Of a stretch of DNA of 64,000 nucleotides, positions 22,071 to 35,068 are shown piece after piece. The stretch is from Candidatus Giovannonibacteria bacterium (GTDB lineage Bacteria > Patescibacteriota > Minisyncoccia > JACPKW01 > UBA11713): the NCBI GenBank assembly GCA_016186825.1, contig JACPKW010000001.1, positions 13,508 to 77,507 on the forward strand. The letters are read 5' to 3'. The first letter of the stretch is position 1, and the number at the start of each line of letters is the position of its first letter. The translations under genes were made by a program, and so were the position numbers. The notes beneath the pieces were generated by a model that was given only the letters and a program-made list of their open reading frames with translations, did not search any database and was not told the DNA's origin.

Positions 22071-22826
22071 CTAGGTCTTTCTAAAGAAAACTGGAATAAT
22101 GCGGGGCGAATCTTCTTTTTTGAAATGGCTATCTAGATTGTAATCGCCATAGATCTCTAAATTCCATTCTACACCAAAATATTCTTTTAGCCTCTCAATC
22201 TCGACATACTGCCCATTTTCAGCGTCTTCGATAGTTTCGCTTTTTCCAGTTTTCTTATCAAAAATTTCATAAACAAATTTTGTCTTTTTCAAGTTGTCAT
22301 CAGTCAGCTCCCAATCTCGGATAACTTTCATTTTGTAATCGTCATTTTCTCCCAAATAAGTTTTATGAAATTTTTGATTATATCTATAAAAATTTGCTTC
22401 GTCTAAAATAACAATTTTCTTAATGTGTGTTTTCTGCCAATCGTAGAAGTTTCTTCTGCCTTCCTCCGAAAAAATATAGGATAAAGTTGACCACATACAA
22501 ATGGCGGCGTTGTATTCTTGATTTATATTTATGGTCTCAAACTGTCCATGAATGACTTTTAAATCGGGATAATTTTTCTTGGCGATCGAAAGTGCTTTTT
22601 CTGACTGGTCGAATAAAGTTACGTCATATCCAGCTTTTAGAAGTAATCCAGAATGAAGGCCAACGCCGCCGCCCAAATCAATTACTTTTTCTATTTTTTC
22701 GGAATATTTTTTGAAAATATCAATGACAAAATTTGTTTCCTCTCTTTCGTGTCCAACTTTTCCAAGAGTTGTTTCGCGCCACAAGGGAAATAATTCAGCC
22801 AAATTTTCATAAATTTTCGTTTTCAT
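22071..22826 (-). CDS. class I SAM-dependent methyltransferase
   Basis: 251 aa. Motif I VIDLGGGVGLHSGLLLKAGYDVTLFD and a post-I acidic residue. Confidence 0.75.
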   Translation of the reverse strand: MKTKIYENLAELFPLWRETTLGKVGHEREETNFVIDIFKKYSEKIEKVIDLGGGVGLHSGLLLKAGYDVTLFDQSEKALSIAKKNYPDLKVIHGQFETININQEYNAAICMWSTLSYIFSEEGRRNFYDWQKTHIKKIVILDEANFYRYNQKFHKTYLGENDDYKMKVIRDWELTDDNLKKTKFVYEIFDKKTGKSETIEDAENGQYVEIERLKEYFGVEWNLEIYGDYNLDSHFKKEDSPRIIPVFFRKT

Positions 22827-22831
22827 AAATT

Positions 22832-23845
22832 TCAGCCAATTTTTGTCAAAACCTCCAACAGCTTCTCTGTATATTGTTTTGATCCGATTGAAATACGCAT
22901 AAATTCTTCGGAAACAAATTTTGAAATCAAAAAATTCATTTTGTCTAATTCTTGTTCCAAAATAGGTTTTGCTGTTTTTTCTACTTTCACTAAAACAAAG
23001 TTTGCTTTTGAATCAAAGGCTTTAAAATTCTTAGATTTGTTGACCTCGGCAACAAAATTTTGCCTATCAGAAATAACCTCACTTGAAAGTTTTTCATAGT
23101 ATTCATCTGATTCAAGTGCGGCAATCGCAATTTCTTCTAAAAGTCGGCTACCGCCCAAGTAAAAATTTTGATAGCGTAAAATCTCTTTCACTTTTTTGCC
23201 GCACAATGCAAATCCAATTCGCAAACCAGCGAGCGCATAAAGTTTAGAAAAACTCCTTAAAATCATTAAATTATCATGTTTTTCCAGCAAAGCTATAAAA
23301 TCTTGCTGATTATATTTTTCGTCAAATCCAAAATAAGCTTCGTCCAAAACAACGAGAGTTGCTTTGTCGGCTTTATTCAATATCTTTTGCAAATCAGCAA
23401 GATTTGTTGAATTTCCTGTCGGATTGTTTGGCGAAGTGATTAAAACCAATTTTGGCTTTAATTCACCAACTTTTCTAAGGCAATCATCAATATCAAAAGT
23501 AAAATCGTTCTGATTTTCTATGAGTCTAAAATTTTCCAACTTTATCTTCTTAAAATCAAGATATTTGTCGTAATAAGTGTAATGAAATTCATGAGTGAGA
23601 ACAATATCATTATCTGGTTTCAAACTGTCAAAAATAGTTCTAAAAATATCTTCTAATCCATAACCAATAATGATTTGATCTTCCGGTAATTGGAAAATTT
23701 TAGACAATTTTGGAATTAAGGTCGAACCAAAATAGCCTTCAAAATACAAAGCTATATGTTCAGAGGAGAAATTTCTTGAAGTCTCCAAAACTTTTGGCGA
23801 TGGCCCTTGTATTACCTCATTTCGATTTAGTAGTTTTTTGTCCAT
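22832..23845 (-). CDS. PLP-dependent aminotransferase class I/II (HisC-like)
   Basis: 337 aa. LVLITSPNNPTGN, VVLDEAYFGF and SFSKLYALAGLRIGF, the PLP-lysine motif. Confidence 0.75.
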   Translation of the reverse strand: MDKKLLNRNEVIQGPSPKVLETSRNFSSEHIALYFEGYFGSTLIPKLSKIFQLPEDQIIIGYGLEDIFRTIFDSLKPDNDIVLTHEFHYTYYDKYLDFKKIKLENFRLIENQNDFTFDIDDCLRKVGELKPKLVLITSPNNPTGNSTNLADLQKILNKADKATLVVLDEAYFGFDEKYNQQDFIALLEKHDNLMILRSFSKLYALAGLRIGFALCGKKVKEILRYQNFYLGGSRLLEEIAIAALESDEYYEKLSSEVISDRQNFVAEVNKSKNFKAFDSKANFVLVKVEKTAKPILEQELDKMNFLISKFVSEEFMRISIGSKQYTEKLLEVLTKIG

Positions 23846-23847
23846 AA

Positions 23848-24069
23848 TTACTTCAGTAATTCATTAGCCGATACGCCCAGCGCATTAGCTATTTTAGCAA
23901 CTGTCGCAAGGGTGGGGTTTTTCTTCCCATTCTCAATATTGCTGATATAGCCCCTATCAACATCTAAAGCTCGCGCAATATCGCCTTGCGACATCTTCTT
24001 TTTAGCTCTAATGCGCTTCATGTTGTTTCCAAATTGTGCAGAGATTTTGTCCATATTTGAGATATTCAC
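23848..24069 (-). CDS. XRE-family helix-turn-helix transcriptional regulator
   Basis: 73 aa. MSQGDIARALDVDRGYISNIENGKKNPTLATVAKIANALGV is a canonical Cro/C1 HTH. Confidence 0.75.
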   Translation of the reverse strand: MNISNMDKISAQFGNNMKRIRAKKKMSQGDIARALDVDRGYISNIENGKKNPTLATVAKIANALGVSANELLK

Positions 24070-24215: not shown

Positions 24216-24225
24216 TTCTAAAATG

Positions 24226-24296
24226 TGGACCCGGGGAGAATCGAACTCCCGCCTACCGGATGCAAACCGGTCGTTTTGCCACTTAACTACGGGCCC
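24226..24296 (-). tRNA. tRNA-Ala (anticodon UGC)
   Basis: The reverse complement starts GGGCCCG with a G3-U70 wobble pair, the Ala identity element. Anticodon loop TTTGCAT (anticodon UGC), T-arm GGGAG-TTCGATT-CTCCC, discriminator A. Confidence 0.8.
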
Positions 24297-24462: not shown

Positions 24463-24747
24463 TCAGAATAATTTTATTTCGCCGTTCTCGTCAATTTTAA
24501 CTTCGAATTCTTCGAGACCAGTTTGGGCGGGGCCTTTCAGTAATTTTCCTGCCGCCTCAAAGCGTGAACCGTGGCATGGACAATCCCATGTCTTTTCGGC
24601 ATCATTCCATTCAACGTCACAGCGCGCGTGCGGGCAGATTGTCGAGAAGACTTTTATTTTTTCCCCGTCGTTATATATAGCTAAAAGTTTTCCATCTATT
24701 TTTACAATCTTCCCATCCCCCTCCGGAATTTCCGAAATTCGTGCCAT
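24463..24747 (-). CDS. Rieske [2Fe-2S] domain protein
   Basis: 94 aa. CPH, then 15 residues, then CPCH. This is the canonical Rieske ligand spacing. Confidence 0.75.
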   Translation of the reverse strand: MARISEIPEGDGKIVKIDGKLLAIYNDGEKIKVFSTICPHARCDVEWNDAEKTWDCPCHGSRFEAAGKLLKGPAQTGLEEFEVKIDENGEIKLF

Positions 24748-24748
24748 G

Positions 24749-25216
24749 CTACTCTACCGTAACCGTTCCTCTTATGCTTGTATTCAAGTGATCGTGGAAT
24801 CCACAGCTATTCTTTTCATTGAATGTGAATGAATAAGTTTCGCCAGGATTGACGCCGCGAAGCGCATCAAATCCCGCGTAGCAAGTATGCGCTGGATGCG
24901 GCCCGGACGCCGGCCAGTGCGGCTTTGAATCTCTGTTCACGAAATTAATTTTCGTTCCCGCTGTTATGTTCACTGTTGACGGTGAAAATCCATTCGACAT
25001 CATTTCAACTGTCATTTCCTCGGACATCATCCCCGTTGTATTTCCAGTCATTCCGCTTGAATTCGTATTTCCAGCATTCTCGCTTGCGTTCGACTTATTA
25101 GATAAATCGGGCTGGCTCGAAATTCCCATGTTTTTCTGACTGGAGTTGGAATATAAATACCATCCTCCGGCAATAATAACAAAGACAACCAAAATGATAA
25201 CTAATATTTTATTCAT
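24749..25216 (-). CDS. secreted cupredoxin-like (type-1 copper fold) protein
   Basis: 155 aa. Signal/TM, then FSPSTVNITAGTKINFVNRDSKPHWPASGPHPAHT...GFHDHL, matching the plastocyanin-like strand pattern with His ligands. Confidence 0.5.
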   Translation of the reverse strand: MNKILVIILVVFVIIAGGWYLYSNSSQKNMGISSQPDLSNKSNASENAGNTNSSGMTGNTTGMMSEEMTVEMMSNGFSPSTVNITAGTKINFVNRDSKPHWPASGPHPAHTCYAGFDALRGVNPGETYSFTFNEKNSCGFHDHLNTSIRGTVTVE

Positions 25217-25276
25217 AACTTTTTAAGTTAATATTAATTTCCTCTTCAAACGCCTCGCGGTCCTCGACTCCGAGAC

Positions 25277-26059
25277 TCAAACTAAGGCGCGCCAATTTTC
25301 TTCGATAATTCGCATTATAAGATTACCCACAAGCAGCGACAACAATAAATAATCGACCTGCTTGGGGCCTTTGAACGCAAAAATTACCGCAAAGGCTCCC
25401 ACAATAATTCCATATAACACCCTGTTCCGGGTTGGGCGAAAAGATGACGTCATGGGTTCAATGAGCATTACGGTAACAAAAAATAAAACTGTCCCATCTA
25501 AAATGATGTTTCGGAATAAAAAAACCGTATTTTCGAAGCTAAATTTTTGGAAATAATTAGAAATCGCAAATAAACCCATATAAGTTAGCAAAAATGCAAT
25601 TGCCGTTTCAAATCGCCTCTGCCTCCACAGTATGAATATTCCACCCGCGAGCATAATCCAAGTTGTAAAGTATGCAAAATTGGCGCCCCACCAAGTGAGA
25701 ACAAATGGACTAAATAAGGAAAGAACGACAAGCGAAAAAGCTGCAGGGTTAAAAATATGTCGCCCATTGAATTTGATTATTTGCTTCGAAAAAACCGCCA
25801 AAAGGGGCAGCAATATAATAAAACGATAATCCTGCGCCAAAGGACCAACTAATGACAAGATTAGACCCGAGATAAGCGAGCTTTCTGGCATATACCAGAT
25901 GCGATCCCGAAAATAAGTCCAGATCAAATCGAAAAATGAATATAAAAGAACTATTGCAATAGCGTTCAAAAAAATCGCCGCATTGCCATGGAATATTGCG
26001 CCCAAAACCAAAAGCACTGCGAGATATAAAACCATGAAATGTTTAATATTGATTTTCAT
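25277..26059 (-). CDS. polytopic membrane protein, weakly NqrB/RnfD-like
   Basis: 260 aa with about 8 TM. GRHIFNPAAF resembles the FNPALVGR block of RnfD/NqrB. The family assignment is tentative. Its start overlaps the stop of the upstream Ddl gene. Confidence 0.55.
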   Translation of the reverse strand: MKINIKHFMVLYLAVLLVLGAIFHGNAAIFLNAIAIVLLYSFFDLIWTYFRDRIWYMPESSLISGLILSLVGPLAQDYRFIILLPLLAVFSKQIIKFNGRHIFNPAAFSLVVLSLFSPFVLTWWGANFAYFTTWIMLAGGIFILWRQRRFETAIAFLLTYMGLFAISNYFQKFSFENTVFLFRNIILDGTVLFFVTVMLIEPMTSSFRPTRNRVLYGIIVGAFAVIFAFKGPKQVDYLLLSLLVGNLIMRIIEENWRALV

Positions 26060-27129
26060 TAAAGCGGCCCTATTTTTTTAGCATGCGCTTCGATGCCAAG
26101 CGCAATTATTTTATCAAGAAAATCCGCGGGGTTCATCCCCACTTCCGCGGCCTGATGGAATACCATTGTTGAAGGAGTTATGCCCGGCAAAGTATTCGGT
26201 TCAAGCACAACAATTTCTCCGTCTTCTTTCACAAACATGTCAATTCTCGGATACCCGATTAAATTTAATTCATCGCATACTTTAATTGCGATTTCCTGCG
26301 CGCGCGCCGTTAACTCCAGAGAAAGCCTTGCAGGCGTGATCATTTCAGCTCCTCCGGGCAAAAATTTATCCTGCAGCGTTAGATATCCCAAATTTTTACT
26401 CCATGGCGTTTCTGTTATCGGGAGAGCAATTCGACTCGCGCGATTGCCTAATACAGAAATAGTAATTTCCATCCCCGTAATTTTTTCCTCGACTAAAATT
26501 CTCCGATCCCAGTGAAAAGCCGCCGAAAATGCCTGCGGGAGATCCTCTGCTTTCGCCACAATCCCAATCGCTGTTGAACACCCCTCGCGTGACGGCTTTA
26601 CAACAACCGGAAAGCCTAGATAGTCCTCAATACGCCTTGCCGCAATTTCCGGACGTTCGCGCCATTCATCTTCAAATAGAGCGAGGTGCTTTGGAGTTTT
26701 AATCCCCGCATTATCCAATATTTTTCTTTGAATATATTTTTCCGAACCAAGTGCGCTTCCTAAAATTCCGGGGCCGTTATAAGGAATTTTCTGAAGCTCG
26801 AGCAGTCCTTGCAGGCATCCATCCTCCATAAATTTTCCATGCCCGATAATAAATGCAAAATCAATCTGTGATTTCAACTCTTCATAAAAAATTCTCTCCC
26901 CTTTGGTTGCAAGCAGCCTTTCGATATCGGAAGTTGTATTTTGCAACAGCAAGAACTCCGGAATTTTCCAAATCCGATGTTTTGAGTCCATGAAAATAGC
27001 GAAAATATCATACTTGGATGTATCGATTTTCTGAAAAACATTGCGTCCGCCTTCGAGCGATACTTCTTTTTCAGAAGATGATCCGCCGAAAATTATCCCG
27101 ACTTTAACTTTTTTTGCCGCATCGGTCAT
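26059..27129 (-). CDS. ddl: D-alanine--D-alanine ligase family (ATP-grasp), paralog 1
   Basis: 356 aa. N-terminal GIIFGGSSSEKEVSL, ATP-grasp core, C-terminal EPNTLPGIT. Confidence 0.8.
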   Translation of the reverse strand: MTDAAKKVKVGIIFGGSSSEKEVSLEGGRNVFQKIDTSKYDIFAIFMDSKHRIWKIPEFLLLQNTTSDIERLLATKGERIFYEELKSQIDFAFIIGHGKFMEDGCLQGLLELQKIPYNGPGILGSALGSEKYIQRKILDNAGIKTPKHLALFEDEWRERPEIAARRIEDYLGFPVVVKPSREGCSTAIGIVAKAEDLPQAFSAAFHWDRRILVEEKITGMEITISVLGNRASRIALPITETPWSKNLGYLTLQDKFLPGGAEMITPARLSLELTARAQEIAIKVCDELNLIGYPRIDMFVKEDGEIVVLEPNTLPGITPSTMVFHQAAEVGMNPADFLDKIIALGIEAHAKKIGPL

Positions 27130-28196
27130 AGCGGTCCTTTTTTACCTTGATGCGCTTCCATGCCTAATTCGATGAGCTTCGTTATGAAATCTTTGGGACC
27201 AAGCCCCGCAAGCGATGCCTGATGAAAAGTCCAAGATGAAGGACCGAGACCTGTGGAAGCGCCGGAATTCGGATCCGTTATCAACACCTCGCCTGAATCC
27301 AAAACAAAGCCGTCTATCCGGGCAAAAGTTTTCGCCTCCAAGGCCTTATACGCGGCTATTGCTTGGCGCTGAATTTCCTTAATTACACTTTCATCAATTT
27401 CCATCGGCGTAACTTTCTCCGATCCGCCCGGCAAATACTTATGGTCATATGTAAAAATTTCGTCGTTATGTATAGTTTCTGTCGGCAAAAATGCGGCCGG
27501 TTCCTTGTTTCCCATTACAACGCAAGAAAACTCCCGCCCCATTAAATACTTTTCAATTAGCGCTGAAGGGTCAAAACGAAAAGCTTCAGCCATTGCGGGA
27601 TCAAAGTCTCCCTTAGCTTTAACAAGTTTCACTCCGAGAGTGGAACCCTCGCGCGAAGGTTTGGTGACAAGCGGGAAACCGAATTTTTTTTCTAGGCTCG
27701 AAGCAATTTCACTTTTCGAACGCTCCCAATCCTCTTTGTAAATAACTTCACCTTCTGGAATATTGATATTATCTGGCGAAAATTTTAAAAGTTTTCTCTG
27801 CATCGGCTTATCCATTCCGAGCGCCGCAGACAAAACACCAGATCCGCTGTAAGGAATACCGAGCAATTCGAGCAGACCCTGAATACATCCATCATCACCA
27901 TATTTGCCATGCGTTGTGAGCAAGGCAAATTCAATTTCTTTGGCAAGGCCTTCATATGAAATAGGGATCGCCGCTTTTGCCTCAAGATTTTCTTCGATTT
28001 CCTTGCATGTATTTCTGATTACAAGCGCTTCCGGAATTTTCCAGAATTTTGCTTCACGCGAAAAATATATCGCCACAGGCTCAAAAAATACTCGATCCAT
28101 GAGCTGATATGCCTGTCTGCCAGAAGCTAAAGAAACTTCCCGCTCTTCAGAAAGACCCCCAAAGATAACTCCAACTTTTAACTTGCTTTTCTCCAT
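27126..28196 (-). CDS. D-alanine--D-alanine ligase family (ATP-grasp), paralog 2
   Basis: 356 aa. VGVIFGGLSEEREVSL...DPNSGAS. Overlaps paralog 1 by 4 nt. Confidence 0.8.
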   Translation of the reverse strand: MEKSKLKVGVIFGGLSEEREVSLASGRQAYQLMDRVFFEPVAIYFSREAKFWKIPEALVIRNTCKEIEENLEAKAAIPISYEGLAKEIEFALLTTHGKYGDDGCIQGLLELLGIPYSGSGVLSAALGMDKPMQRKLLKFSPDNINIPEGEVIYKEDWERSKSEIASSLEKKFGFPLVTKPSREGSTLGVKLVKAKGDFDPAMAEAFRFDPSALIEKYLMGREFSCVVMGNKEPAAFLPTETIHNDEIFTYDHKYLPGGSEKVTPMEIDESVIKEIQRQAIAAYKALEAKTFARIDGFVLDSGEVLITDPNSGASTGLGPSSWTFHQASLAGLGPKDFITKLIELGMEAHQGKKGPL

Positions 28197-28199
28197 TGA

Positions 28200-29126
28200 T
28201 TATTTTCGAGCTTCTGAAATTAAATGCTCCAATAGTCCTTTGAAAGAAAGTCCGGCAACATTCGCCGCCTCCGGATAACAGGCCTCCGGAGTCAATTTCG
28301 GAAGAGCATTCGCTTTGTTAATATAAATCCCGCGTTTTGATAATGTGAATTCTGTGCGCGAATAATGCCTGCACCCCAAAGCCTGATGCGCAACTATTGA
28401 CGATTCTTTAATTTTATCCGTCGTGGCCTTGTCAAAACGTCCCGGACAAATCATCCCTCCTCTTTTCGGATCGCAAATTTCAACAACCGGCAGCGCGTAA
28501 TATTTTTGTCCATGAAAATTTTCAAGCACTCCGCCTGAAGCGACCCTTCCATCCAAGTTTTCTTCAATTAATGCTTCTTTGCAGTCAGGAGTCTCAAATA
28601 TTTTATCCAAAGCTCTAACAATTTCAGGCTCGCTCTTTGCTAAAATTTGCAAGGCTGAATTTGCTTGCGCTGGCTTGATTACCCACCAAGGGAAAAGCGT
28701 CTCGCGCGCCGTTGATACCATTTTTTTTCGATCGCTAAGCCGTGAGACAACCACAGCGTGGGGAACTTTCAAGCCATGGCTTTCAAAAATCTTTCTCGAA
28801 ATTATTTTATTGCCCGCGGCGGCGGCAGAAACCGCATCCGAGCCGGTAACAGGCAGCCCCAGCGTTTTAAAGCTTTGCTCGGCTTTTTTATACCCCTTGA
28901 GTCTGCCATGCAAGGCATTAAAAACAACATCAATTTTATGAGCTAGTTTTTCAGGCGGCAAGGGGAATCCATCCAAATGCCAAATTCCGTCCTTAGTCCA
29001 AAGAATGTCTTTCAATTCATACTTATTACGCGGCAAATATTTCAAAGCATTCGCCCCGGATTGGAGCGAAGCTTCGAATTCCGAATATGGTCCTCCGCGA
29101 AGCACTCCGACCCTTATCTTAGCCAT
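28200..29126 (-). CDS. D-alanine--D-alanine ligase family (ATP-grasp), shorter paralog 3
   Basis: 308 aa. VGVLRGGPYSEFEASL N-terminal domain and ATP-grasp C-terminal half. 4-nt gap to paralog 2. Confidence 0.7.
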   Translation of the reverse strand: MAKIRVGVLRGGPYSEFEASLQSGANALKYLPRNKYELKDILWTKDGIWHLDGFPLPPEKLAHKIDVVFNALHGRLKGYKKAEQSFKTLGLPVTGSDAVSAAAAGNKIISRKIFESHGLKVPHAVVVSRLSDRKKMVSTARETLFPWWVIKPAQANSALQILAKSEPEIVRALDKIFETPDCKEALIEENLDGRVASGGVLENFHGQKYYALPVVEICDPKRGGMICPGRFDKATTDKIKESSIVAHQALGCRHYSRTEFTLSKRGIYINKANALPKLTPEACYPEAANVAGLSFKGLLEHLISEARK

Positions 29127-29194
29127 GATTAATTTTAAAACATTACACCAGCGACATAAAGCGTCCGCGCAAAGTAACTCAAAGTTTATTTAAA

Positions 29195-30178
29195 CTATTC
29201 TGGAAAGTATTTCTTCTTAAGAGAGATCGACATGTAGCCGGCGCCGATCATGAGAAAGCCTGCAATTACAAGGGCAAAGGGCCAGCCCAGACCTTCTGTA
29301 AAATATTCAGCTGTGATCTTCAGAATATAAATCATTAGGAATATAGTTCCAAAGACAAGAAAAGATTTGCTTTCTACGTGAACGCTCGCAAAGAGCGTTG
29401 CGAATATCAGCAAGGGATAAATCATTTCCCAAAAAAAATTTTGCTTAGGTTCCCACCCTCCAAGCGTAAAAGCTGCTCCAAGAAAGCCAAGGATACCGAA
29501 ACTGTAGAGAAACTGTGAGATCGGAGCTTTGTCGGTCTTAGAAAACGCATACCCCAAGAGCAAATAGGTAAACCCCGCAATTAATGCGCGATATTGAAAA
29601 AAATCCCATTCTGCAACGATAGGGTTACTTCCAACAAGAAAATTGGTGAATGCAAAGAAAAACCATGTCGAAAAAATAATACTAAAAAACGCAAAAATAT
29701 TTTTCTTGAAGAGAAAATAGGATAAAAGAAAAACAACAATCAGAACACCAGAAATAAAGCTTTGCGATCCGTCACTTCCCGCATCCAATCCTGCATTGTC
29801 AAAAAACACAACAAGCCCAATTGGTAAAAGCATGGCCGAGAGGAGAAAAAAAGCTGACCCTATTACTTCTATATCCTCCCTTTTTTGAAATACGACCCCG
29901 ACAATGTATGCAGTAATGCCTGATCCAAGCGTTACAAGAATGCGCGTTAGAGGAGAAAGAAAATCCCAATTCTGCCAAACGAGAATTGCGATGCCCAAAA
30001 AAACTATTCCCCCGCCAATATAATATAGAATTTCTGACATTCCGAGTTTATTAGTAAAAACGCGGTCTCGCATTTCACCGCGCCCCTCCTCAAAAGCCGA
30101 AACCAGTTCTTCGCGCGAAACGAGGTTTTCTTTCGAAACATCTCTAATAAATTTCAAAATTTCCGCTTTGTTCGCCAT
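29195..30178 (-). CDS. polytopic membrane protein with a soluble N-terminal domain
   Basis: 327 aa. About 50 cytoplasmic residues, then more than 8 TM helices. Confidence 0.55.
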   Translation of the reverse strand: MANKAEILKFIRDVSKENLVSREELVSAFEEGRGEMRDRVFTNKLGMSEILYYIGGGIVFLGIAILVWQNWDFLSPLTRILVTLGSGITAYIVGVVFQKREDIEVIGSAFFLLSAMLLPIGLVVFFDNAGLDAGSDGSQSFISGVLIVVFLLSYFLFKKNIFAFFSIIFSTWFFFAFTNFLVGSNPIVAEWDFFQYRALIAGFTYLLLGYAFSKTDKAPISQFLYSFGILGFLGAAFTLGGWEPKQNFFWEMIYPLLIFATLFASVHVESKSFLVFGTIFLMIYILKITAEYFTEGLGWPFALVIAGFLMIGAGYMSISLKKKYFPE

Positions 30179-30179
30179 A

Positions 30180-30722
30180 TTATTTTTTTACCCAGCCAAT
30201 AAATTGAAAATCATACGCATAAATGTTTCCAGCCTCCATGTTTAATTTTTTCGCCACGCCATTGCCCTTTAGATATCGATCCCTGCTACTCCTTGGAAAA
30301 AAGGGAAATATTCCATCGCCGCTCGAACCGTAAGAAATCTCGAAACCATCTGGAGACTTATAACTCGATACAAGATTTAACCGCGAGGCTTCGTCAAATG
30401 AAATTTCTCTCGATTTATTTTCTTCTATGCCATAATAATAAATCTTTTCATCGAAAATTGTGCGGGACATGCTCCTTTCTTCAGCGGGCCTTTCCGTTCT
30501 TATTAATTTTTCATTCTCAACTGCATATGTGTATCTGCTAGAGTAACTAGCGCTGCTGATATAGATAAAGTCATATTTAGGCGAGACAAAAAGGCTTGGT
30601 AAATAAATGCTCCCGGCAACAACTAAAATCATGACTAGCGGAATAGTTAATCCAATGATCAGAGTGATATTTTTTTTCATGAATCCGAACATTAAATGCG
30701 ATAAACCAATGCGGAAAGTCAA
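30180..30722 (-). CDS. membrane-anchored hypothetical protein
   Basis: 180 aa. N-terminal TM, then a soluble domain. 2-nt gap to the downstream gene. Confidence 0.5.
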   Translation of the reverse strand: MTFRIGLSHLMFGFMKKNITLIIGLTIPLVMILVVAGSIYLPSLFVSPKYDFIYISSASYSSRYTYAVENEKLIRTERPAEERSMSRTIFDEKIYYYGIEENKSREISFDEASRLNLVSSYKSPDGFEISYGSSGDGIFPFFPRSSRDRYLKGNGVAKKLNMEAGNIYAYDFQFIGWVKK

Positions 30723-30773: not shown

Positions 30774-30845
30774 GCGAGTATAGTTCAGTGGTAGAACGCT
30801 GTCCTGATAAGACAGAGGTCGAAGGTTCGATTCCTTCTACTCGCA
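30774..30845 (+). tRNA. tRNA-Ile (anticodon GAU)
   Basis: GCGAGTA acceptor stem, D-arm GTTC-AGTGGTA-GAAC, anticodon stem CTGTC/GACAG with loop CTGATAA (anticodon GAU), T-arm GAAGG-TTCGATT-CCTTC, acceptor TACTCGC plus A. Confidence 0.85.
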
Positions 30846-30856
30846 CAATCTACAAA

Positions 30857-31018
30857 CTATTTTTTTGCGCCGGGAAGGATAGAATACATTCCCGTCGAGC
30901 ATTTCGGACAGGAACCTTTCATTGCTTTGCGGCCGTTTTTCATTGTTACCTCCTTCGCCATTGCCATTTCTCGCTTTGCCTTGCACTTGACGCAATATGC
31001 CATTACTTTGTCAGCCAT
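30857..31018 (-). CDS. DUF5679-like small zinc-ribbon protein (not in the ORF track, below 60 aa)
   Basis: 53 aa: MADKVMAYCVKCKAKREMAMAKEVTMKNGRKAMKGSCPKCSTGMYSILPGAKK. The MAYCVKCK...CPKC pattern matches the widespread DUF5679 mini-protein. Confidence 0.6.
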   Translation of the reverse strand: MADKVMAYCVKCKAKREMAMAKEVTMKNGRKAMKGSCPKCSTGMYSILPGAKK

Positions 31019-31122
31019 TTTTTTAAAAAATATTTTACTTTTAATCTCGACCTGAAGGCTAATTAAATAAGCTAAGCTCTGATTTAAGTATAATTAAACA
31101 ATGATTTCAGTCAAAGCAAAAC

Positions 31123-31150
31123 CCCTTTGCACTTTGCAAAGGGGTTTTGC
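31123..31150. terminator. bidirectional intrinsic terminator (CCCCTTTGCA-ctt-TGCAAAGGGG plus T-run)
   Basis: Perfect 10-bp stem with an A-run before and a T-run after. On the minus strand it lies about 175 nt downstream of the 16S 3' end. Confidence 0.7.
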
Positions 31151-31450: not shown

Positions 31451-32289
31451 ATTATCTTCTAGAAACTTAGAATTGATGTTCCCACGTAGTGTGCGGATTT
31501 CCCGCGCTACGCGAGCTCTAATGCATTGATGCTTTTATTTTATAGAGCTTAGCTAACCCCTGCTTGTTAAGATGTTGGCCGTTTTTTATCCTCAACATCA
31601 GATCACAGAATATCTCAAAGTCTCTTTTCTTTGATTTAAGCTGCAACTGATGAGTTTTAAAAAACGGAATAATGACATCTTCAAGATCCTTTCTATTGGA
31701 TACTTCATAGCGATAACAATTCTGGTGATTCTTACGTGTATCTTTCTGAAAATACACCTCGCCGCAACCGAAAAATTTTTTTAGCCTAAAGAGAATTTCA
31801 GAGTCTCTCTCAATAAGCTTTAAATAAAATTTCGGTTCAGCTCTAACCCATCTTTTTACATTTTTTGTAAATTCAGGGTTTTTAATGTAGGCGGTAAAAC
31901 TACCCTCGCCATCAACTAGTCCAATAATATATTCGGCATTAAGCATATTTAGAGTGGATCCTTTCCGGTTCTAGCCGGTACTATGATCCAGCTGACTTCT
32001 GACGCTGCGTAAGTTTCATTATATCTTATCTTGCGACAAAATAGCAGCGTCAGATCTCCACAGGTCATTTTATTTTCTATTCCAAGCATCCGAATTGGCC
32101 TTATTATGATCTTCCCTGCCCTCACCGCCAATTGCAGGTCGAACTGCCATTTATATATCGGCTGCTTTTTGCTTCCAGATCCTTCGCTTGCCGCTTCACA
32201 GCGGCAAACTATCTTTCGGCTATGCTCTTTGACGAGAAGAGAAATGGATTTTAACCATTCAGAAAATAAAACTGCTGCGCGCTTTTATT
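31451..32289 (-). mobile_element. intron-like insertion 1 in the 16S gene (near E. coli position 1391) carrying a LAGLIDADG ORF
   Basis: The 16S sequence stops after ...CTTGTACTCAC and resumes CGCCCGTCACG 839 bp later. Conserved rRNA flanks are intact on both sides. Confidence 0.65.
31518..31946 (-). CDS. LAGLIDADG homing endonuclease (single-motif)
   Basis: 142 aa. The N-terminal IIGLVDGEGSF is the LAGLIDADG motif. Encoded inside the 16S insertion on the same strand as the rRNA. Confidence 0.75.
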   Translation of the reverse strand: MLNAEYIIGLVDGEGSFTAYIKNPEFTKNVKRWVRAEPKFYLKLIERDSEILFRLKKFFGCGEVYFQKDTRKNHQNCYRYEVSNRKDLEDVIIPFFKTHQLQLKSKKRDFEIFCDLMLRIKNGQHLNKQGLAKLYKIKASMH

Positions 32290-32714
32290 GTGAGTACAAG
32301 ACTCGAGAACGTATTCACCGCGGCATAGCTGATCCGCGATTACTAGCGATTCCAGCTTCATGAGGTCGAGTTTCAGACCTCAATCCGAACTGAGCTCACC
32401 TTTGATGAGATTGGCTCCGCCTTACGGCATCGCGACCCATTGTAGTGAGCATTGTAGCATGTGTGTAGCCCAGGGCATCAGAGGGTCATGCTGACCTGGC
32501 GTCATCCCCGCCTTCCTCCCCCTATACGGAGGCAGTCTCGTCTGACACTTATAACAGACGATAAGGGTTGCGTTCGTTACCCCACTTAAGGGAACAGCTC
32601 AAGCCACGAACTGACGACGGCCATGCAACACCTGTGTAAGCGTCCTTGTGAGACATTTTTTCTTTCGAAAAAATTTCGCTTACATTTCAAGCCCTGGTGA
32701 GGTTCTTCGTTTAC

Positions 32715-32749
<35 letters not shown>

Positions 32750-32896
32750 AGTCCCCGTCTATTCCTTTGAGTTTTAATCTTGCGATCGTACTTCCCAGGC
32801 GGCAGGCTTAACGCGTTAGCTTACGGCTCCCGAAGGGTCGATACTTCGGATGCCTAGCCTGCATCGTTTAGGGCGTGGACTACAAGGGTATCTACA

Positions 32897-33593
32897 AATT
32901 TGTTGCTAACAACAAATTTGAAATTTTCAATTTTACAATTTCCAATTTTCAAAATGTTGTAGGGCAAGACATTTCTGCTTGTCTCTCTGCATCGCTGCAG
33001 AGTTCAGACTATATCATACGAGCACTTTGAGAAGCGGACGTCGTTAGACATCCGGACTTCAAAGTGCTCGCCTCGGCGTATAGTCGTTGAGGGGAATTAG
33101 ACTGGGATAAAACGACTCACCTCATAAAGGTTTCTGCCAATAACTCGATCTCCGCCAGCTTCGATGTTCTTGATAAATTCAGCCAAATCCGCTTTCGCAA
33201 GATCGTCGGACTCCTGTTCGATGCATTCAACTATGCTGCGGTTCTTGTTTTCTATATCAAGTATAGCGAGATAGTTCATTTTCTACTCCTTTCTTAATTC
33301 TTCCCTGCTGGTTATCCGCACCAAAACATTTTTACTCTTGCAAGTAGTTTTGGATACACCGGACTTTCCAGCATATAGCTCCCGCCTCGGCTCACGCCTC
33401 GACGGGATTCTCAATTTTGCAGCCAACATGCGTTGGGCAAAATTGGAACAAGTTTTTTATCCTCGTCCGCCAGTTAGCGGATTCGAGGGGACTAGTTTTC
33501 CGCCGATACCCTCGGCGGCCACTGCACAGCAGTAAAATCTCCAATTTGAAAATTGAAAATTGTAAATTGAAAATTTCGCTGCCATGCAGCGGG
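32897..33593 (-). mobile_element. intron-like insertion 2 in the 16S gene (within the GGATTA|GATACCC block, near E. coli position 788)
   Basis: About 697 bp interrupt a universally conserved block. The insertion termini carry complementary AT-rich repeats (AAATTTGAAATTTTCAATTTTACAATTTCC at 32921-32950 and GAAAATTGAAAATTGTAAATTGAAAATTTC at 33549-33578) that could pair the intron ends. Confidence 0.55.
33097..33279 (-). CDS. small acidic ORF inside 16S insertion 2, preceded by a strong SD
   Basis: 60 aa. The minus-strand upstream sequence reads GAATTAAGAAAGGAGTAGAAA-ATG, so the SD AAAGGAG lies 6 nt from the start. No recognised motif. Confidence 0.35.
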   Translation of the reverse strand: MNYLAILDIENKNRSIVECIEQESDDLAKADLAEFIKNIEAGGDRVIGRNLYEVSRFIPV

Positions 33594-33920
33594 TTAATCC
33601 TTTTTGATCCCCACGCTTTCGTGTTTCAGGGTCAGGAATGCCCCAGCAAATTGCCTTCGCCTTTGGTGTTCCCCTAGATATCAACGGATTTCACCCCTAC
33701 ACCTAGAGTTCCATTTGCCTCTGGCACCCTCCGAGCTCGGCCGTTTCCCCGCCAGCTTCAGGGTTGAGCCCTGAAATTTAAACGGAGACTAACCGTGCCC
33801 CCTACACACCCTTTACGCCCAATAAATCCGGATAACGCTCGGGCTCCTCGTCTTACCGCGGCTGCTGGCACGAGGTTAGCAAGCCCTTATTCCTGCGGTA
33901 CCGTCAGAGTTAGAGCTGTG

Positions 33921-34148
33921 AAGAGACAAGTTTTTTTCCTTTCTACTTGCCTCGTATTTTCCTTATTGGATAAGGACTATTGAAAATATATTTGGGGTTG
34001 TCATTTTTGATTCTTATGAATCTCCCAGGGACTTCATCTGATGTTGCTTCAAATTCTTTTGTAACTCTTTCCCCGGTTTTTTGATTTACCCCGCGCACTA
34101 TATACAAATAGCGCTGATATTCTCTATTTAACATTTTAAATATCTCCT
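33921..34148 (-). other. insertion of about 228 nt in the loop of the 16S V3 hairpin (helix 17), intervening-sequence-like
   Basis: Complementary stems GAGTTAGAGCTGTG (33907-33920) and CACAGCTCCAACTC (34149-34162) flank about 228 nt where E. coli has about 35 nt. Confidence 0.5.
33943..34134 (-). CDS. small basic ORF (63 aa) inside the 16S V3 insertion, preceded by an SD
   Basis: MLNREYQRYLYIVRGVNQKTGERVTKEFEATSDEVPGRFIRIKNDNPKYIFNSPYPIRKIRGK. The upstream minus-strand sequence is GTGAGGAGATATTT-ATG (GGAG 7 nt from the start). The longer ORF-track version (to 34299) runs into conserved rRNA and is rejected. Confidence 0.35.
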   Translation of the reverse strand: MLNREYQRYLYIVRGVNQKTGERVTKEFEATSDEVPGRFIRIKNDNPKYIFNSPYPIRKIRGK

Positions 34149-34626
34149 CACAGCTCCAACTCTTCTTCTCGCAGAAAAGCGGTTTACGCTCCGAAGAGCT
34201 TCTTCCCGCACGCGGCGTCGCTCGATCAGGCTTTCGCCCATTGTCGAATGTTCTTGACTGCAGCCACCCGTAGGTGTATGGACCGTGTCGCAGTTCCATT
34301 GGTGGGGATCAAGCTCTCACTTCCCCTAGCCGTCATAGCCTTGGTAGGCCATTACCCTACCAACAAGCTGATAGCCCGCAGGCCTTTCCCAGAGCCTATC
34401 GCTAGATTTACTCGGCACCTTCCAAACTTCGTGTAATTCGCTCGACACAAAGTCTCGAAGGTGCCGAGACTATCGGGAATTAGCTAACCTTTCGGCTAGT
34501 TATGCCCGTCTCTGGGGTAAGTTCCTACGTGTTACTACCCCGTCTGCCACTGAACATCTAAATCCGTCGCATTGATATAATCTCAACTCCTTCAAAAGAT
34601 GTTCCGTTCGACTTGCATGCCTTATC

Positions 34627-34666
<40 letters not shown>

Positions 34667-35068
34667 TTTGAATTGCTCACGCATTGCGCGAGCAAATTTT
34701 GAACGGGACAAAAGAGAGTAGTTATAACTTTCTTTTGTCACAAACTTTTCACCCGCTTAAGTATTGTCTTAAACAATTCCTTGCGGGTTGTGTGTCCCGA
34801 TTTTGCTTCTGCAAAGCAGAAATGCAAAATCGAGGATCCCCGATTTTCATTTATGAAAATCGGGACATGTTTTTGATATTCTTTTTTCAACGTTCTGTCG
34901 ATCTGAATATTCTCTGTAAACAAACCCGCAACTGCCTTCACATAAAAACAGTTGCGGACTTGTTTATTTTTCAAATAAATTTTTAGGGCTGTTTACATAA
35001 GTTTTCGAATTAATTCTAAGTCCAATGTCCATTATATGGTTCCTGCAAAGCTTGTCAACCGGCCGATT

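What the first reader, a model, noticed from the sequence alone, without database searches (positions are those of the whole stretch)
24463..30722. Operon of three tandem D-Ala-D-Ala-ligase-family ATP-grasp enzymes coupled to membrane and redox proteins (Rieske, cupredoxin-like, NqrB/RnfD-like)
Three Ddl-family paralogs sit head-to-tail on the minus strand with 4-nt overlaps or gaps (356, 356 and 308 aa; 28200-29126, 27126-28196, 26059-27129). Two membrane proteins (29195-30722) precede them. A polytopic membrane protein overlaps by 1 nt downstream (25277-26059), followed by a secreted cupredoxin-like protein and a Rieske [2Fe-2S] protein, ending at tRNA-Ala. One Ddl is expected for peptidoglycan. 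Three divergent copies in translational coupling with electron-transfer-type proteins is not a known arrangement. It suggests synthesis of alternative D-aminoacyl dipeptides or depsipeptides (VanA/VanC-like specificity changes), or an unrelated ATP-grasp ligation chemistry, possibly redox-coupled.
Basis: partly seen in the sequence, partly recalled or inferred. Interest (0 to 1): 0.7.

Follow-up and report, generated by a model that had tools for sequence, protein, structure and literature searches.

The report
Split double Ddl plus dead copy
A tiny-genome (CPR) bacterium carries three D-Ala-D-Ala-ligase genes in a row: two are an unfused version of a widely conserved but barely studied "double Ddl" pair, the third is a catalytically dead remnant of the lineage's original ligase, and the adjoining redox genes are neighbours inherited from the ancestral locus, with no evidence here that they work with the ligases.

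Summary
Eight same-strand ORFs at the stated coordinates include three Ddl-family proteins, an RnfD-like membrane protein, a cupredoxin-like protein and a Rieske protein. The organism is a Candidatus Giovannonibacteria MAG.

The three ligases are not equivalent.
- **Ddl-3 (28200-29126)** descends from the ordinary ~320-aa Patescibacteria Ddl. It differs at 12 of 19 catalytic or substrate positions, including a deleted omega loop and E270K. Its ORF is still kept open by selection.
- **Ddl-2 (type A)** has S150/Y216/D270. **Ddl-1 (type B)** has C150/F216/E270. Together they form a conserved A-then-B unit.
- This unit lies between alr and ftsQ in other Patescibacteria. It is adjacent or near-adjacent in Anaerolineae and Syntrophales. 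It is fused into 600-1260-aa double Ddl proteins in about 95 of the top 148 representatives. Plant DDL is also reported as a fusion of two DDLs.

The pair most likely supplies D-Ala-D-Ala (or D-Ala-D-X) for peptidoglycan.

The RnfD-like, cupredoxin and Rieske module is colinear with the short Ddl in three sister lineages, but never accompanies the pair elsewhere. The RnfD-like protein lacks the flavin-attachment loop. Redox-coupled ligation is unsupported.

This is a new variant of a known kind. The role of the F/C-type half is the open question.

The parts
30860..31006 (-). Small DUF5679-type ORF (49 aa). It is the synteny anchor upstream of the cluster.
   Evidence: tblastn with the L018 DUF5679 protein gives 84% identity over 49 aa. 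The same gene precedes the Ddl/RnfD-like region in L018, L019 and L020.
30774..30846 (+). tRNA-Ile(GAT), on the opposite strand to the cluster.
   Evidence: ARAGORN and Rfam, 77.7 bits.
30180..30722 (-). 180-aa protein with an N-terminal membrane anchor and no family. It is not conserved at this position in relatives.
   Evidence: ORF. No significant Pfam or NCBIfam hit. No tblastn hit in related loci.
29195..30178 (-). DUF2157 polytopic membrane protein. It is not conserved at this position in relatives.
   Evidence: Pfam DUF2157, 34.5 bits vs 32.4. No hit in related loci.
28200..29126 (-). Ddl-3: a degenerate copy of the lineage's ordinary short (~320 aa) Ddl. It is predicted inactive as a ligase, yet its ORF is maintained.
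   Evidence: Nearest relatives are 45-51% identical canonical Patescibacteria Ddl. Ddl-3 differs at 12 of 19 catalytic or substrate positions that are at least 97% conserved in 119 homologs, apart from the naturally variable position 148. It sits on a long branch inside the short-Ddl clade. In a neutral simulation 0 of 400 ORFs stayed open. NCBI names it 'hypothetical protein'.
27126..28196 (-). Ddl-2: the 'type A' half of the double Ddl (E15/S150/Y216 triad intact; E68D, E270D, L282W).
   Evidence: Pfam and NCBIfam. About 40 Patescibacteria orthologs at 53-70% identity share the signature. It lies upstream of a type B gene in every context examined, immediately so in all but L009 and L017, where a small ORF intervenes. 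It corresponds to the N-terminal half of the fused proteins.
26059..27129 (-). Ddl-1: the 'type B' half of the double Ddl (S150C, Y216F, S281T, L282M; all ATP/Mg catalytic residues kept).
   Evidence: The signature is conserved in 17 of 17 B genes or C-terminal domains for F216 and in 16 of 17 for C150.
25277..26059 (-). Stand-alone RnfD/NqrB-like polytopic membrane protein without the flavinylation loop.
   Evidence: Pfam PF03116, 46.4 bits. A profile of 33 homologs hits the RnfD structure 7zc6_D at E = 3.4e-11 over nearly its full length, with the TATPL-containing loop absent from the family. Orthologs are in L018, L019 and L020, and it is fused to an FNR-like domain in L011.
24749..25216 (-). 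Membrane-anchored or secreted cupredoxin-like protein.
   Evidence: Pfam Cupredoxin_1 and Copper-bind. Orthologs at 55-57% identity in L018 and L019, and as a CHRD-cupredoxin fusion in L011. Conserved HWPAS...HPxH...CxxHDH residues.
24463..24747 (-). 94-aa soluble Rieske [2Fe-2S] protein with bc1/b6f-type motifs (CPHxxC...CPCHGS).
   Evidence: Pfam Rieske, 60.2 bits. Best NCBIfam similarity is to PetC, far below cut-off. Orthologs at 57-59% identity in L018 and L019.
24225..24296 (-). tRNA-Ala(TGC), the downstream boundary of the cluster.

Best explanation
The locus is a composite of three things on one chromosomal backbone.

**(1) An unfused 'double Ddl'.** Ddl-2 (type A) and Ddl-1 (type B) form a conserved two-part D-Ala-D-Ala-ligase unit. 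In other lineages its halves are adjacent genes between alr and ftsQ, or one fused polypeptide. Both halves keep the full ATP-grasp catalytic set. I infer that they act together, probably as a heterodimer that mimics the usual Ddl homodimer, and supply the D-Ala-D-Ala (or D-Ala-D-X) dipeptide for peptidoglycan. Type A has the canonical dipeptide triad. Type B has a broken triad (E-C-F) whose specific role is unknown.

**(2) A dead original ligase.** Ddl-3 is the lineage's original short Ddl. Once the pair was present it lost the constraint on catalysis. It is retained as an open, translated but non-catalytic protein (a pseudoenzyme or a repurposed protein).

**(3) A neighbouring redox module.** The RnfD-like, cupredoxin-like and Rieske genes already lay downstream of the short Ddl in the common ancestor of this clade. 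They are probably co-transcribed with the ligases. Nothing shows that they take part in ligation.

Shown: gene content, residue patterns, synteny, the existence of fusions. Inferred: heterodimer formation, the product, the inactivity of Ddl-3, and the independence of the redox module.
For: **The pair is conserved.**
- Type A is followed by type B in the window, L005, L007, L009, L011-13 and L014 (Patescibacteria), in L016 (Anaerolineae) and in L017 (Syntrophales). The two are directly adjacent except in L009 and L017, where a small ORF (80 aa and 262 aa) lies between them.
- alr lies immediately upstream and an FtsQ-like gene downstream in L005, L007 and L009.

**Rosetta-stone fusions.**
- About 95 of the top 148 50%-identity representatives found with Ddl-1 are 600-1262-aa proteins. 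Nearly all of them carry an N-terminal S/Y/D signature and a C-terminal C/F/E signature.
- Named members are Bacteroidetes proteins annotated only as 'D-alanine--D-alanine ligase'.
- Moss Ddl is closest to homologs in the Fibrobacteres-Chlorobi-Bacteroidetes group. The moss Ddl knockout gives the peptidoglycan-loss phenotype (PMC9434261).

**Both halves look competent.** Both keep K144, K215, R255, D257, D/E270 and N272.

**Ddl-3 has lost catalytic constraint but not its ORF.**
- It deviates at 12 of 19 positions, against almost no deviation in 119 homologs.
- The only other short Ddl found in a triad (L011-13) has G276Y/T278S/S281A/L282S. Short Ddls with no pair beside them (L001, L018, L019) are canonical.
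- SerRS shows the three lineages are equidistant (67-69% identity). Yet the window's short Ddl is 45% identical to the others, which are 58-62% identical to each other.
- In a neutral simulation no ORF stayed open (0 of 400).

**The redox module belongs to the backbone.**
- DUF5679, short Ddl, RnfD-like, cupredoxin, (DAO flavoprotein) and Rieske are colinear in L018, L019 and the window.
- The RnfD-like gene occurs without any Ddl in L020.
- The pair occurs without any redox gene in L005, L007, L009, L014, L016 and L017.
Against: - No biochemistry exists for any A/B pair. The heterodimer and the product are inferred.
- The NJ tree did not cleanly separate unfused A from unfused B clades. A-to-A orthology across phyla therefore rests on signature residues and modest identity differences (46-48% vs 40-46%).
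- I could not check that plant DDL halves carry the A/B signatures.
- Adjacency of Ddl and the RnfD-like gene persists across lineages that are only 45-50% identical in these proteins. The window has a 1-nt stop/start overlap, and L011 and L019 have 2-nt and 9-nt gaps. Some functional link, for example through D-alanine metabolism, cannot be excluded.
- I could not survey the whole source genome for alr, another Ddl, or VanH/VanX-like genes. No alr lies in the 64-kb window.
Confidence: 0.6

Rival explanations
1. Division of labour by substrate. Type A makes D-Ala-D-Ala. Type B (F at the Y216 position, C at S150) is a depsipeptide or alternative ligase, making D-Ala-D-Lac or another D-Ala-D-X. 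The cell would then build mixed or glycopeptide-insensitive peptidoglycan precursors.
For: - Y216F converts E. coli DdlB into a depsipeptide ligase. Natural F-type Ddls of Leuconostoc and Lactobacillus make D-Ala-D-Lac, and F258Y makes L. reuteri vancomycin-sensitive (PMC3378904).
- F216 is conserved in 17 of 17 type B sequences and C150 in 16 of 17, so the E15-S150-Y216 hydrogen-bond triad is broken on two of three positions.
- D-Ala2-pocket residues also differ systematically between A (S281, W/F282) and B (T281, M/C/V/I282).
Against: - Type B is far below the NCBIfam cut-offs for D-Ala-D-Lac ligases (182 vs 550) and D-Ala-D-Ser ligases (175 vs 520; VanG 200 vs 495).
- No VanH- or VanX-like genes lie next to any pair examined.
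- In moss, whose DDL is a double Ddl of FCB-bacterial affinity, the precursor pentapeptide is reported to be the ordinary Gram-negative type (PMC9434261).
- The effect of Cys at position 150 is unknown.
Confidence: 0.2
2. Three active ATP-grasp ligases with distinct products work in one pathway that is mechanistically coupled to electron transfer through the Rieske, cupredoxin and RnfD-like proteins.
For: - The genes are tightly packed and probably co-transcribed.
- Redox-gene synteny with Ddl holds in L011-13, L018 and L019.
- Relatives add an FNR-like domain (L011) or a DAO-family flavoprotein related to glycine/D-amino-acid oxidases (L018, L019). That could link D-amino-acid oxidation to the locus.
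- Type B carries a conserved active-site Cys.
Against: - Ddl-3 lacks the residues needed for ATP-grasp catalysis.
- The A/B pair occurs in at least three other phylum-level groups, and as fusions, with no redox partners.
- The RnfD-like gene occurs without Ddl in L020.
- The RnfD-like family lacks the FMN-attachment loop, and no RnfA/B/C/E/G genes are present.
- The DAO gene is absent from the window.
- The wider region (DUF5679 ... sigma-70, SerRS, FtsQ-like) is also colinear. Adjacency is therefore explained by shared ancestry.
Confidence: 0.1
3. Ddl-3 is neither dead nor a mere remnant. It is a neofunctionalised ATP-grasp-fold protein, for example a regulatory or scaffolding partner of the A/B pair or a ligand-binding protein, and that is why its ORF is preserved.
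For: - The ORF is intact despite divergence at which neutral evolution would give about 5-10 stop codons (0 of 400 simulated ORFs stayed open).
- Fold-defining and some nucleotide-site residues are retained: G10, G11, E15, H63-equivalent, K97-equivalent and K144-equivalent.
- A 3-nt gap to Ddl-2 suggests co-translation.
- The short Ddl in the L011 triad has changes confined to the D-Ala2 loop. That looks like an early stage of the same trajectory.
Against: - There is only one sequence of this degenerate type. The closest relative is 51% identical, so no conservation pattern for a new function can be read.
- Loss of both Mg ligands, K215 and the Gly/Ser loop rules out ordinary ATP-grasp chemistry.
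Confidence: 0.35

Closest known systems
Plant plastid DDL (Arabidopsis, Physcomitrium) and bacterial fused 'double Ddl' proteins of the FCB group
   Same: Two complete Ddl modules work as one unit. The plant fusion is described in PMC9954125. Moss Ddl is needed for plastid peptidoglycan and is closest to FCB-group homologs (PMC9434261).
   Different: In the window the two halves are separate genes that overlap by 4 nt. They share ~35-40% identity with the fused proteins. I could not test whether plant DDL halves carry the A/B signatures. The asymmetry (Y-type vs F/C-type half) is not described in the literature I could search.
E. coli DdlA / DdlB isozymes
   Same: The ATP-grasp family and catalytic residues are the same. 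Type A keeps the E15-S150-Y216 triad of both E. coli enzymes. Both cases show more than one ddl per genome.
   Different: The E. coli genes are unlinked, and both are canonical D-Ala-D-Ala ligases with identical key residues. Here the two genes are translationally coupled, have complementary conserved substitutions, and are fused in other lineages. Identity to DdlB is 29-32%.
F-type depsipeptide Ddls of Leuconostoc and Lactobacillus (LmDdl2 F261; L. reuteri F258) and the DdlB Y216F mutant
   Same: Type B has Phe at the Y216-equivalent position, the single change shown to give depsipeptide (D-Ala-D-Lac) activity (PMC3378904).
   Different: Those enzymes are the sole Ddl of the cell and keep Ser at position 150. 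Type B also has Cys150 and always comes with a Y-type partner. Its activity is untested. Its NCBIfam D_ala_D_lac score is 182 against a cut-off of 550.
VanA/VanB and VanC/VanG resistance ligases
   Same: All are Ddl-family paralogs with altered second-site specificity that coexist with a host Ddl.
   Different: Scores are far below every Van model cut-off, for example VanA 150 vs 775 and VanG 200 vs 495. No vanH, vanX, vanR or vanS genes are present. The pair is chromosomal, ancient and sits in a cell-division gene context.
RnfD / NqrB subunits of ion-pumping ferredoxin/NADH oxidoreductases
   Same: The profile gives homology over nearly the whole length to RnfD structures (7zc6_D, E = 3.4e-11; 8ahx_D). 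The HxFNPA and ...EPxT... motifs are shared.
   Different: The protein is only ~260 aa. The loop that carries the FMN-binding Thr (TATPL in 7zc6_D) is missing. No other Rnf or Nqr subunits are nearby. NCBIfam RsxD scores 29 against a cut-off of 415. NCBI's name 'RnfABCDGE ... subunit D' is an over-annotation.
Small high-potential-type Rieske proteins (b6f PetC / bc1 type)
   Same: It has the CPHxxC...CPCHGS cluster-binding and disulfide motifs. Its best family similarity is to PetC.
   Different: It is 94 aa with no membrane anchor or Tat signal, and lies far below family cut-offs (57 vs 250). In relatives it follows a DAO-family flavoprotein. From memory, this resembles a split form of FAD-oxidoreductase/Rieske fusion proteins; that was not tested.

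Membership tests
D-Ala-D-Ala ligase family (Pfam PF01820 + PF07478) | Significant match to both the N- and C-terminal Ddl domains, above the gathering score. | tested here: met
   All three proteins match. C-domain scores are 151.5, 135.6 and 59.0 bits against 24. N-domain scores are 85.3, 81.1 and 36.1 bits against 34.6.
NCBIfam D-alanine--D-alanine ligase subfamily models (NF002528, TIGR01205, NF002378) | Whole-protein score at or above the curated cut-off. | tested here: not met
   Ddl-1 scores 252.1 vs 262. Ddl-2 scores 234.3 vs 262. Ddl-3 scores 129.4 vs 243. NCBI names them 'hypothetical protein' or 'ATP-grasp domain-containing protein'.
Catalytically competent Ddl (ATP-grasp chemistry) | K144, K215, R255, D257, E270 and N272 (E. 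coli DdlB numbering), plus the Gly/Ser-rich loop at 148-153. | tested here: met
   This holds for Ddl-1 and Ddl-2. All residues are present, with a conservative E270D in Ddl-2 that is shared by 16 of the 17 type A genes or N-terminal domains tabulated.
Catalytically competent Ddl (ATP-grasp chemistry), tested on Ddl-3 | The same residue set. | tested here: not met
   K215 and Y216 are deleted along with the omega loop. Other changes are D257E, E270K, S151A, G153Q, E68G, G276K and S281A. The same positions are at least 97% conserved in 119 nearest homologs.
Dipeptide-specific (D-Ala-D-Ala) Ddl | Hydrogen-bond triad E15-S150-Y216. | tested here: met
   Ddl-2 (type A) has E, S and Y. For Ddl-1 the feature is not met: it has E, C and F.
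F-type depsipeptide Ddl (Leuconostoc / Lactobacillus type) | Phe at the Y216-equivalent position, and demonstrated D-Ala-D-Lac synthesis. | tested here: inconclusive
   Ddl-1 has the Phe, as do all 17 type B sequences. Activity cannot be tested here. NCBIfam D_ala_D_lac scores 182 vs 550.
VanA/B/D/M-type D-Ala-D-Lac ligases and VanC/E/G/L/N D-Ala-D-Ser ligases | Score above the curated 'exception' model cut-offs, and a van operon context (vanH/vanX or vanT/vanXY). | tested here: not met
   The best scores are VanG at 200 vs 495 and VanA at 150 vs 775. No such neighbours appear.
Double Ddl (A/B unit; fused in FCB bacteria and plants) | A type A module (S150/Y216/D270) directly followed by a type B module (C150/F216/E270), as adjacent genes or one polypeptide. 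| tested here: met
   The window has Ddl-2 then Ddl-1 with a 4-nt overlap. The same order and signatures occur in 7 unfused and 10 fused examples tabulated, and in nearly all of the ~95 fused representatives.
Double Ddl (A/B unit) | Physical association of the halves, and D-Ala-D-Ala as the product. | not testable with these tools
   This is inferred from the fusions and from plant genetics in the literature.
RnfD / NqrB | Homology to the RnfD/NqrB fold. | tested here: met
   Pfam PF03116 scores 46.4 vs 27.7. The profile hits 7zc6_D at E = 3.4e-11, covering positions 18-264 of 267.
RnfD / NqrB | A covalent-FMN attachment Thr in its loop, and co-occurrence with the other Rnf or Nqr subunits. 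| tested here: not met
   The loop aligned to '...TATPLAILKG...' of 7zc6_D is absent from the family. No other Rnf or Nqr genes lie in the locus. NCBIfam RsxD scores 29 vs 415.
Rieske [2Fe-2S] proteins | CxH...CxxH cluster ligands and a Pfam match. | tested here: met
   PF00355 scores 60.2 vs 20.3. The sequence has CPHARC...CPCHGS, conserved in L018 and L019.
Cupredoxins (type 1 copper proteins) | A Pfam match, and His/Cys/His(/Met) copper ligands. | tested here: inconclusive
   Cupredoxin_1 scores 27.2 vs 27.0 and Copper-bind 24.6 vs 21.2. Conserved H...C-x2-H-x-H residues are present in four orthologs. The ligand geometry is not established.

The most novel reading that the evidence does not exclude
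The A/B 'double Ddl' is an obligate asymmetric enzyme conserved from CPR bacteria through Chloroflexi, Desulfobacterota and FCB bacteria to plant plastids. Its F/C-type half would carry out a chemistry distinct from D-Ala-D-Ala synthesis, such as a depsipeptide, another D-Ala-D-X, or a regulatory half-site. If so, a large and overlooked share of bacteria would build or tune their peptidoglycan termini differently from the textbook single-Ddl scheme. In the Giovannonibacteria-like clade this unit would additionally be wired to a small membrane electron-transfer chain linked to D-amino-acid oxidation.
Probability: 0.2. Interest if true: 0.8.

Novelty: new variant of a known kind. Interest (0 to 1): 0.58.

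Why it matters
Ddl is a textbook essential enzyme and an antibiotic target: D-cycloserine inhibits it, and its product is what vancomycin binds.

They use a conserved two-part enzyme whose halves carry complementary active-site substitutions. One of these is the Tyr-to-Phe change known to switch E. coli Ddl to depsipeptide synthesis. That gives a directly testable question about cell-wall precursor chemistry and intrinsic glycopeptide or cycloserine susceptibility across several phyla. It may also explain why plant DDL is a double enzyme.

The window adds a natural experiment. The lineage's original Ddl has lost catalysis beside an intact pair, which argues that the pair is sufficient for Ddl function.

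The result also corrects an over-annotation. The stand-alone 'RnfD' is not part of an Rnf complex.

Tried and rejected
- **Genome scan.** A genome-contig scan with Ddl-3 found only one close locus, L001, which has a single canonical Ddl. The other two hits were distant Bacteroidetes hits.
- **Metagenome scan.** A metagenome-contig scan with Ddl-1 returned only generic Ddl loci at 38% identity or less.
- **Other degenerate short Ddls.** I looked up the contexts of two other short Ddls with deviant motifs, P0033 and P0117, to test 'decay when the pair is present'. No pair lay on those contigs, so the test was uninformative.
- **RnfD-like vs PDB.** A single-sequence search found nothing. Only the 33-sequence profile reached RnfD.
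- **Literature.** Searches for tandem or double bacterial Ddl, CPR Ddl paralogs, and RnfD/cupredoxin/Rieske in Patescibacteria found nothing on bacteria. Only the plant DDL fusion turned up.
- **Plant DDL sequence.** I tried to read it from a paper supplement to check the A/B signatures. It is not held.
- **NJ tree.** A tree of 45 Ddl modules placed Ddl-3 in the short-Ddl clade. It did not cleanly resolve unfused A from unfused B, so I do not claim a dated duplication.
- **Other readings considered and rejected.**
  - Recent redundant duplication: rejected at 25-41% identity.
  - Van-type resistance cassette: no family membership and no accessory genes.
  - Bona fide Rnf complex: no partner subunits and no FMN site.
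  - Free-drifting pseudogene for Ddl-3: the ORF is kept open.
  - The two upstream membrane proteins as part of a conserved system: absent from all related loci.

Full report
**1. What is there**

The window is from a Candidatus Giovannonibacteria (CPR/Patescibacteria) MAG. The exact proteins are deposited as HYW53_00265 and HYW53_00260, and they recur on 6-9 contigs of up to 107.9 kb.

Pfam confirms:
- three Ddl-family proteins: 28200-29126 (called Ddl-3 here), 27126-28196 (Ddl-2) and 26059-27129 (Ddl-1);
- an NQR2_RnfD_RnfE-family membrane protein (25277-26059);
- a cupredoxin-like protein (24749-25216, borderline scores);
- a Rieske protein (24463-24747);
- a DUF2157 membrane protein and a 180-aa anchored protein upstream.

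Junctions are tight. There is a 3-nt gap, then a 4-nt overlap, then a 1-nt overlap (TAATG), then 60 nt, then 1 nt. The consensus promoter and terminator scan gives nothing decisive.

**2. The three ligases are three different things**

I aligned them against E. coli DdlB, taken from the MG1655 record, and read the classical positions.

*Ddl-3.*
- It belongs to the ordinary short (~320 aa) Patescibacteria Ddl clade. Its nearest relatives are at most 51% identical, and it sits on a long branch in that clade.
- In 119 nearest homologs the catalytic and substrate positions are at least 97% conserved, apart from the naturally variable position 148.
- Ddl-3 differs at 12 of 19 positions. The omega loop is deleted, removing K215 and Y216. 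The other changes are D257E, E270K, E68G, D69Y, R148A, S151A, G153Q, G276K, S281A and L282C.
- SerRS shows that the window, L018 and L011 lineages are equidistant (67-69% identity). Yet the window's short Ddl is 45% identical to the other two, which are 58-62% identical to each other. The excess change lies on the window's branch.
- The ORF is nevertheless intact. In a simple neutral simulation, 0 of 400 sequences stayed open even at much smaller divergence. Ddl-3 is therefore a maintained protein that has lost ATP-grasp catalysis, not a drifting pseudogene.

*Ddl-2 (type A) and Ddl-1 (type B).*
- They are 41% identical, and both keep K144, K215, R255, D257, D/E270 and N272.
- Type A has the canonical E15-S150-Y216 triad, plus E68D, E270D and W282.
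- Type B has C150, F216, T281 and M282.

**3. Ddl-2 and Ddl-1 are an unfused 'double Ddl'**

*Unfused pairs.*
- Type A has about 40 Patescibacteria orthologs at 53-70% identity with the same signature.
- In every context I could fetch, a type B gene follows. This holds in L005, L007 and L009 (alr-A-B-FtsQ-like), L011-13, L014, the Anaerolineae locus L016 and the Syntrophales locus L017. L009 has an 80-aa ORF between A and B. L017 reads alr-fusion, A, a 262-aa protein, then B.
- The signatures are conserved across these phyla.

*Fused forms.*
- An exhaustive representative search with Ddl-1 returned mostly 600-1262-aa proteins containing two Ddl modules.
- Motif typing and alignment of ten of them show almost uniformly an N-terminal S150/Y216/D270 module and a C-terminal C150/F216/E270 module. 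This is the same order as the genes in the window.
- Named members are Bacteroidetes proteins annotated simply as D-alanine--D-alanine ligase.
- No curated NCBIfam model is specific for them.

*What the fusions imply.* This is Rosetta-stone evidence that A and B act together.

*Literature.*
- The only description of a double Ddl that I found is from plants. [quoted passage not shown]
- Moss Ddl is closest to homologs in the Fibrobacteres-Chlorobi-Bacteroidetes group. Its knockout gives the peptidoglycan-loss phenotype. The moss pentapeptide is reported to be of the ordinary Gram-negative type (PMC9434261).
- I could not obtain a plant sequence to check the A/B signatures.

**4. Most likely mechanism**

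- *Shown:* the pair occupies the normal ddl slot (after alr, before ftsQ) in other small CPR genomes. Both halves are catalytically complete. The halves are fused in many lineages. In the window, the only other Ddl is catalytically destroyed.
- *Inferred:* the pair is the working Ddl of this organism. It probably forms an A:B heterodimer equivalent to the usual Ddl homodimer and supplies the D-Ala-D-Ala (or D-Ala-D-X) unit for MurF.

The degeneration of Ddl-3 beside an intact pair acts as a natural complementation experiment. So does the milder damage confined to the D-Ala2 loop (G276Y/T278S/S281A/L282S) in the only other triad found, L011-13. Short Ddls with no adjacent pair (L001, L018, L019) are canonical.

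The function of the type B site is the open point.
- Y216F turns E. coli DdlB into a depsipeptide ligase, and natural F-type Ddls make D-Ala-D-Lac (PMC3378904). A second product is therefore plausible.
- Against this, no VanH- or VanX-like genes accompany the pair. All Van and D-Lac family cut-offs are missed by a wide margin. The moss data point to ordinary D-Ala-D-Ala termini.
- I put altered specificity at about 0.2.

**5. The redox genes**

*The RnfD-like protein.*
- It belongs to a Patescibacteria family of ~230-300-aa stand-alone proteins.
- A 33-sequence profile hits RnfD structures over almost the full length (7zc6_D, E = 3.4e-11). The loop that carries the FMN-binding threonine (TATPL in 7zc6_D) is absent.
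- No other Rnf or Nqr subunits are nearby. 'RnfD' is a fold assignment here, not membership of an Rnf complex.

*Synteny in relatives.*
- L018 and L019 read DUF5679, a small ORF, short Ddl, (DUF1622), RnfD-like, cupredoxin-like, DAO-family flavoprotein, Rieske, NUDIX.
- Identity to the window proteins there is 49-51% (RnfD-like), 55-57% (cupredoxin-like) and 57-59% (Rieske).
- In L011-13 the Ddl triad is followed by an RnfD-like domain fused to an FNR-like FAD/NAD(P) domain, then a CHRD-cupredoxin protein.
The genes are syntenic.

*Why I still read this as ancestry rather than coupling.*
- The association is with the short Ddl and its chromosomal backbone, not with the A/B pair.
- A DUF5679 gene 84% identical to L018's sits at window 30860-31006.
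- The sigma-70, small ORF, SerRS and FtsQ-like block is also shared.
- The complete genome locus L020 has DUF5679 followed by RnfD-like with no Ddl.
- None of the six other pair-containing lineages has redox neighbours.
- The DAO gene is absent from the window.

*What the module may do.* It looks like a small trans-membrane electron path: a cytoplasmic flavoprotein, FNR domain or Rieske protein, then the RnfD-like membrane protein, then an external cupredoxin. Its function is unknown. A link to D-amino-acid oxidation is a hint only, because the DAO protein resembles glycine/D-amino-acid oxidases without reaching any cut-off.

I rate functional coupling to ligation at about 0.1. The two upstream membrane proteins are not conserved in any related locus.

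**6. Comparison, novelty and verdict**

The closest known systems are:
- the plant/FCB double DDL (same architecture; here split into two genes);
- E. coli DdlA and DdlB (same family; unlinked and equivalent);
- F-type depsipeptide Ddls (same Phe; different context);
- Van ligases (membership tests failed);
- RnfD/NqrB (same fold; defining flavin site and partner subunits absent).

What is new:
- recognition that the bacterial double Ddl is a conserved asymmetric Y-type/F-type unit, spanning several phyla as adjacent genes or fusions;
- a CPR genome that catches displacement of the ancestral Ddl in the act.

I file this as a new variant of a known kind, with interest about 0.58.

Limits:
- there is no biochemistry;
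- I could not survey the rest of the source genome (no alr lies in the window);
- the A/B phylogeny is only partly resolved.

Noticed in passing
window 32243-34672 (-), 31518-31946 (-), 30774-30846 (+), 24225-24296 (-): The 16S rRNA match spans 2430 nt against a 1533-position model, so it carries about 900 nt of insertion(s). A LAGLIDADG homing-endonuclease ORF (Pfam E = 1.6e-14) lies about 300 nt beyond the 16S 3' end rather than inside it. tRNA-Ile is on the opposite strand. The whole Ddl/redox cluster sits between tRNA-Ile and tRNA-Ala, where a normal rrn operon would be contiguous. No 23S rRNA is in the window.
   Followed up: no
window 31116-31150: A perfect 16-bp-stem palindrome (GCAAAACCCCTTTGCA / TGCAAAGGGGTTTTGC) lies between the DUF5679 ORF and the LAGLIDADG ORF. 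It is the strongest terminator-like site in the scanned region.
   Followed up: no
proteins P0361-P0508; examples P0361, P0368, P0375, P0425: Fused double Ddl proteins come in several size classes. These are ~700-750 aa (plain A-B), ~790-830 aa, ~870-930 aa (with insertions in both halves; Bacteroidetes MED-G17) and ~1220-1290 aa (with a long C-terminal extension that looks like a membrane or PASTA-type region). JGI often mislabels them 'UDP-N-acetylmuramate--alanine ligase'.
   Followed up: partly
L017 6027-7988 and 9102-9890: In the Syntrophales locus the alanine racemase upstream of type A carries a ~280-aa C-terminal extension with no Pfam match. A 262-aa signal-peptide protein with no Pfam match sits between the type A and type B genes. 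MlaE, MlaF and MlaD follow.
   Followed up: no
L011 6791-8245 and 8265-9026: An RnfD-like membrane domain is fused to an FNR-type FAD/NAD(P)-binding domain, whose best NCBIfam similarity is to the flavohemoprotein reductase part and to NqrF. It is followed by a CHRD domain fused to the cupredoxin-like domain. This architecture argues that the stand-alone RnfD-like family does take part in electron transfer despite lacking the FMN loop.
   Followed up: partly
L018 4066-5493; L019 3740-5167: A DAO-family flavoprotein (Pfam 167 bits) is immediately followed by the 92-aa Rieske protein. Its nearest characterised relatives are glycine oxidase ThiO, sarcosine and pipecolate oxidases, and DadA, all below cut-off. 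The window has lost, or never had, the flavoprotein.
   Followed up: partly
window 22071-24069 (-): Directly downstream of tRNA-Ala lie an XRE-type HTH protein (73 aa), a class I/II aminotransferase (337 aa) and a SAM-dependent methyltransferase (251 aa). GC content dips to 0.34 in 22-24 kb, against ~0.41 elsewhere. This may be a foreign insert.
   Followed up: no
L020 6903-9815: In the complete Giovannonibacteria genome CP066687 a ~2.9-kb stretch without any called gene lies just upstream of DUF5679 and the RnfD-like gene. This is the position where relatives have their neighbouring genes. It may hold RNA genes or gene remnants.
   Followed up: no
proteins P0033, P0095, P0115, P0117: A few other short Patescibacteria Ddls also lack the omega-loop K215/Y216 or have altered Mg and substrate-loop residues. 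P0033 is flanked by toxin-antitoxin genes. Loss of function in short Ddls may be recurrent in this phylum.
   Followed up: partly
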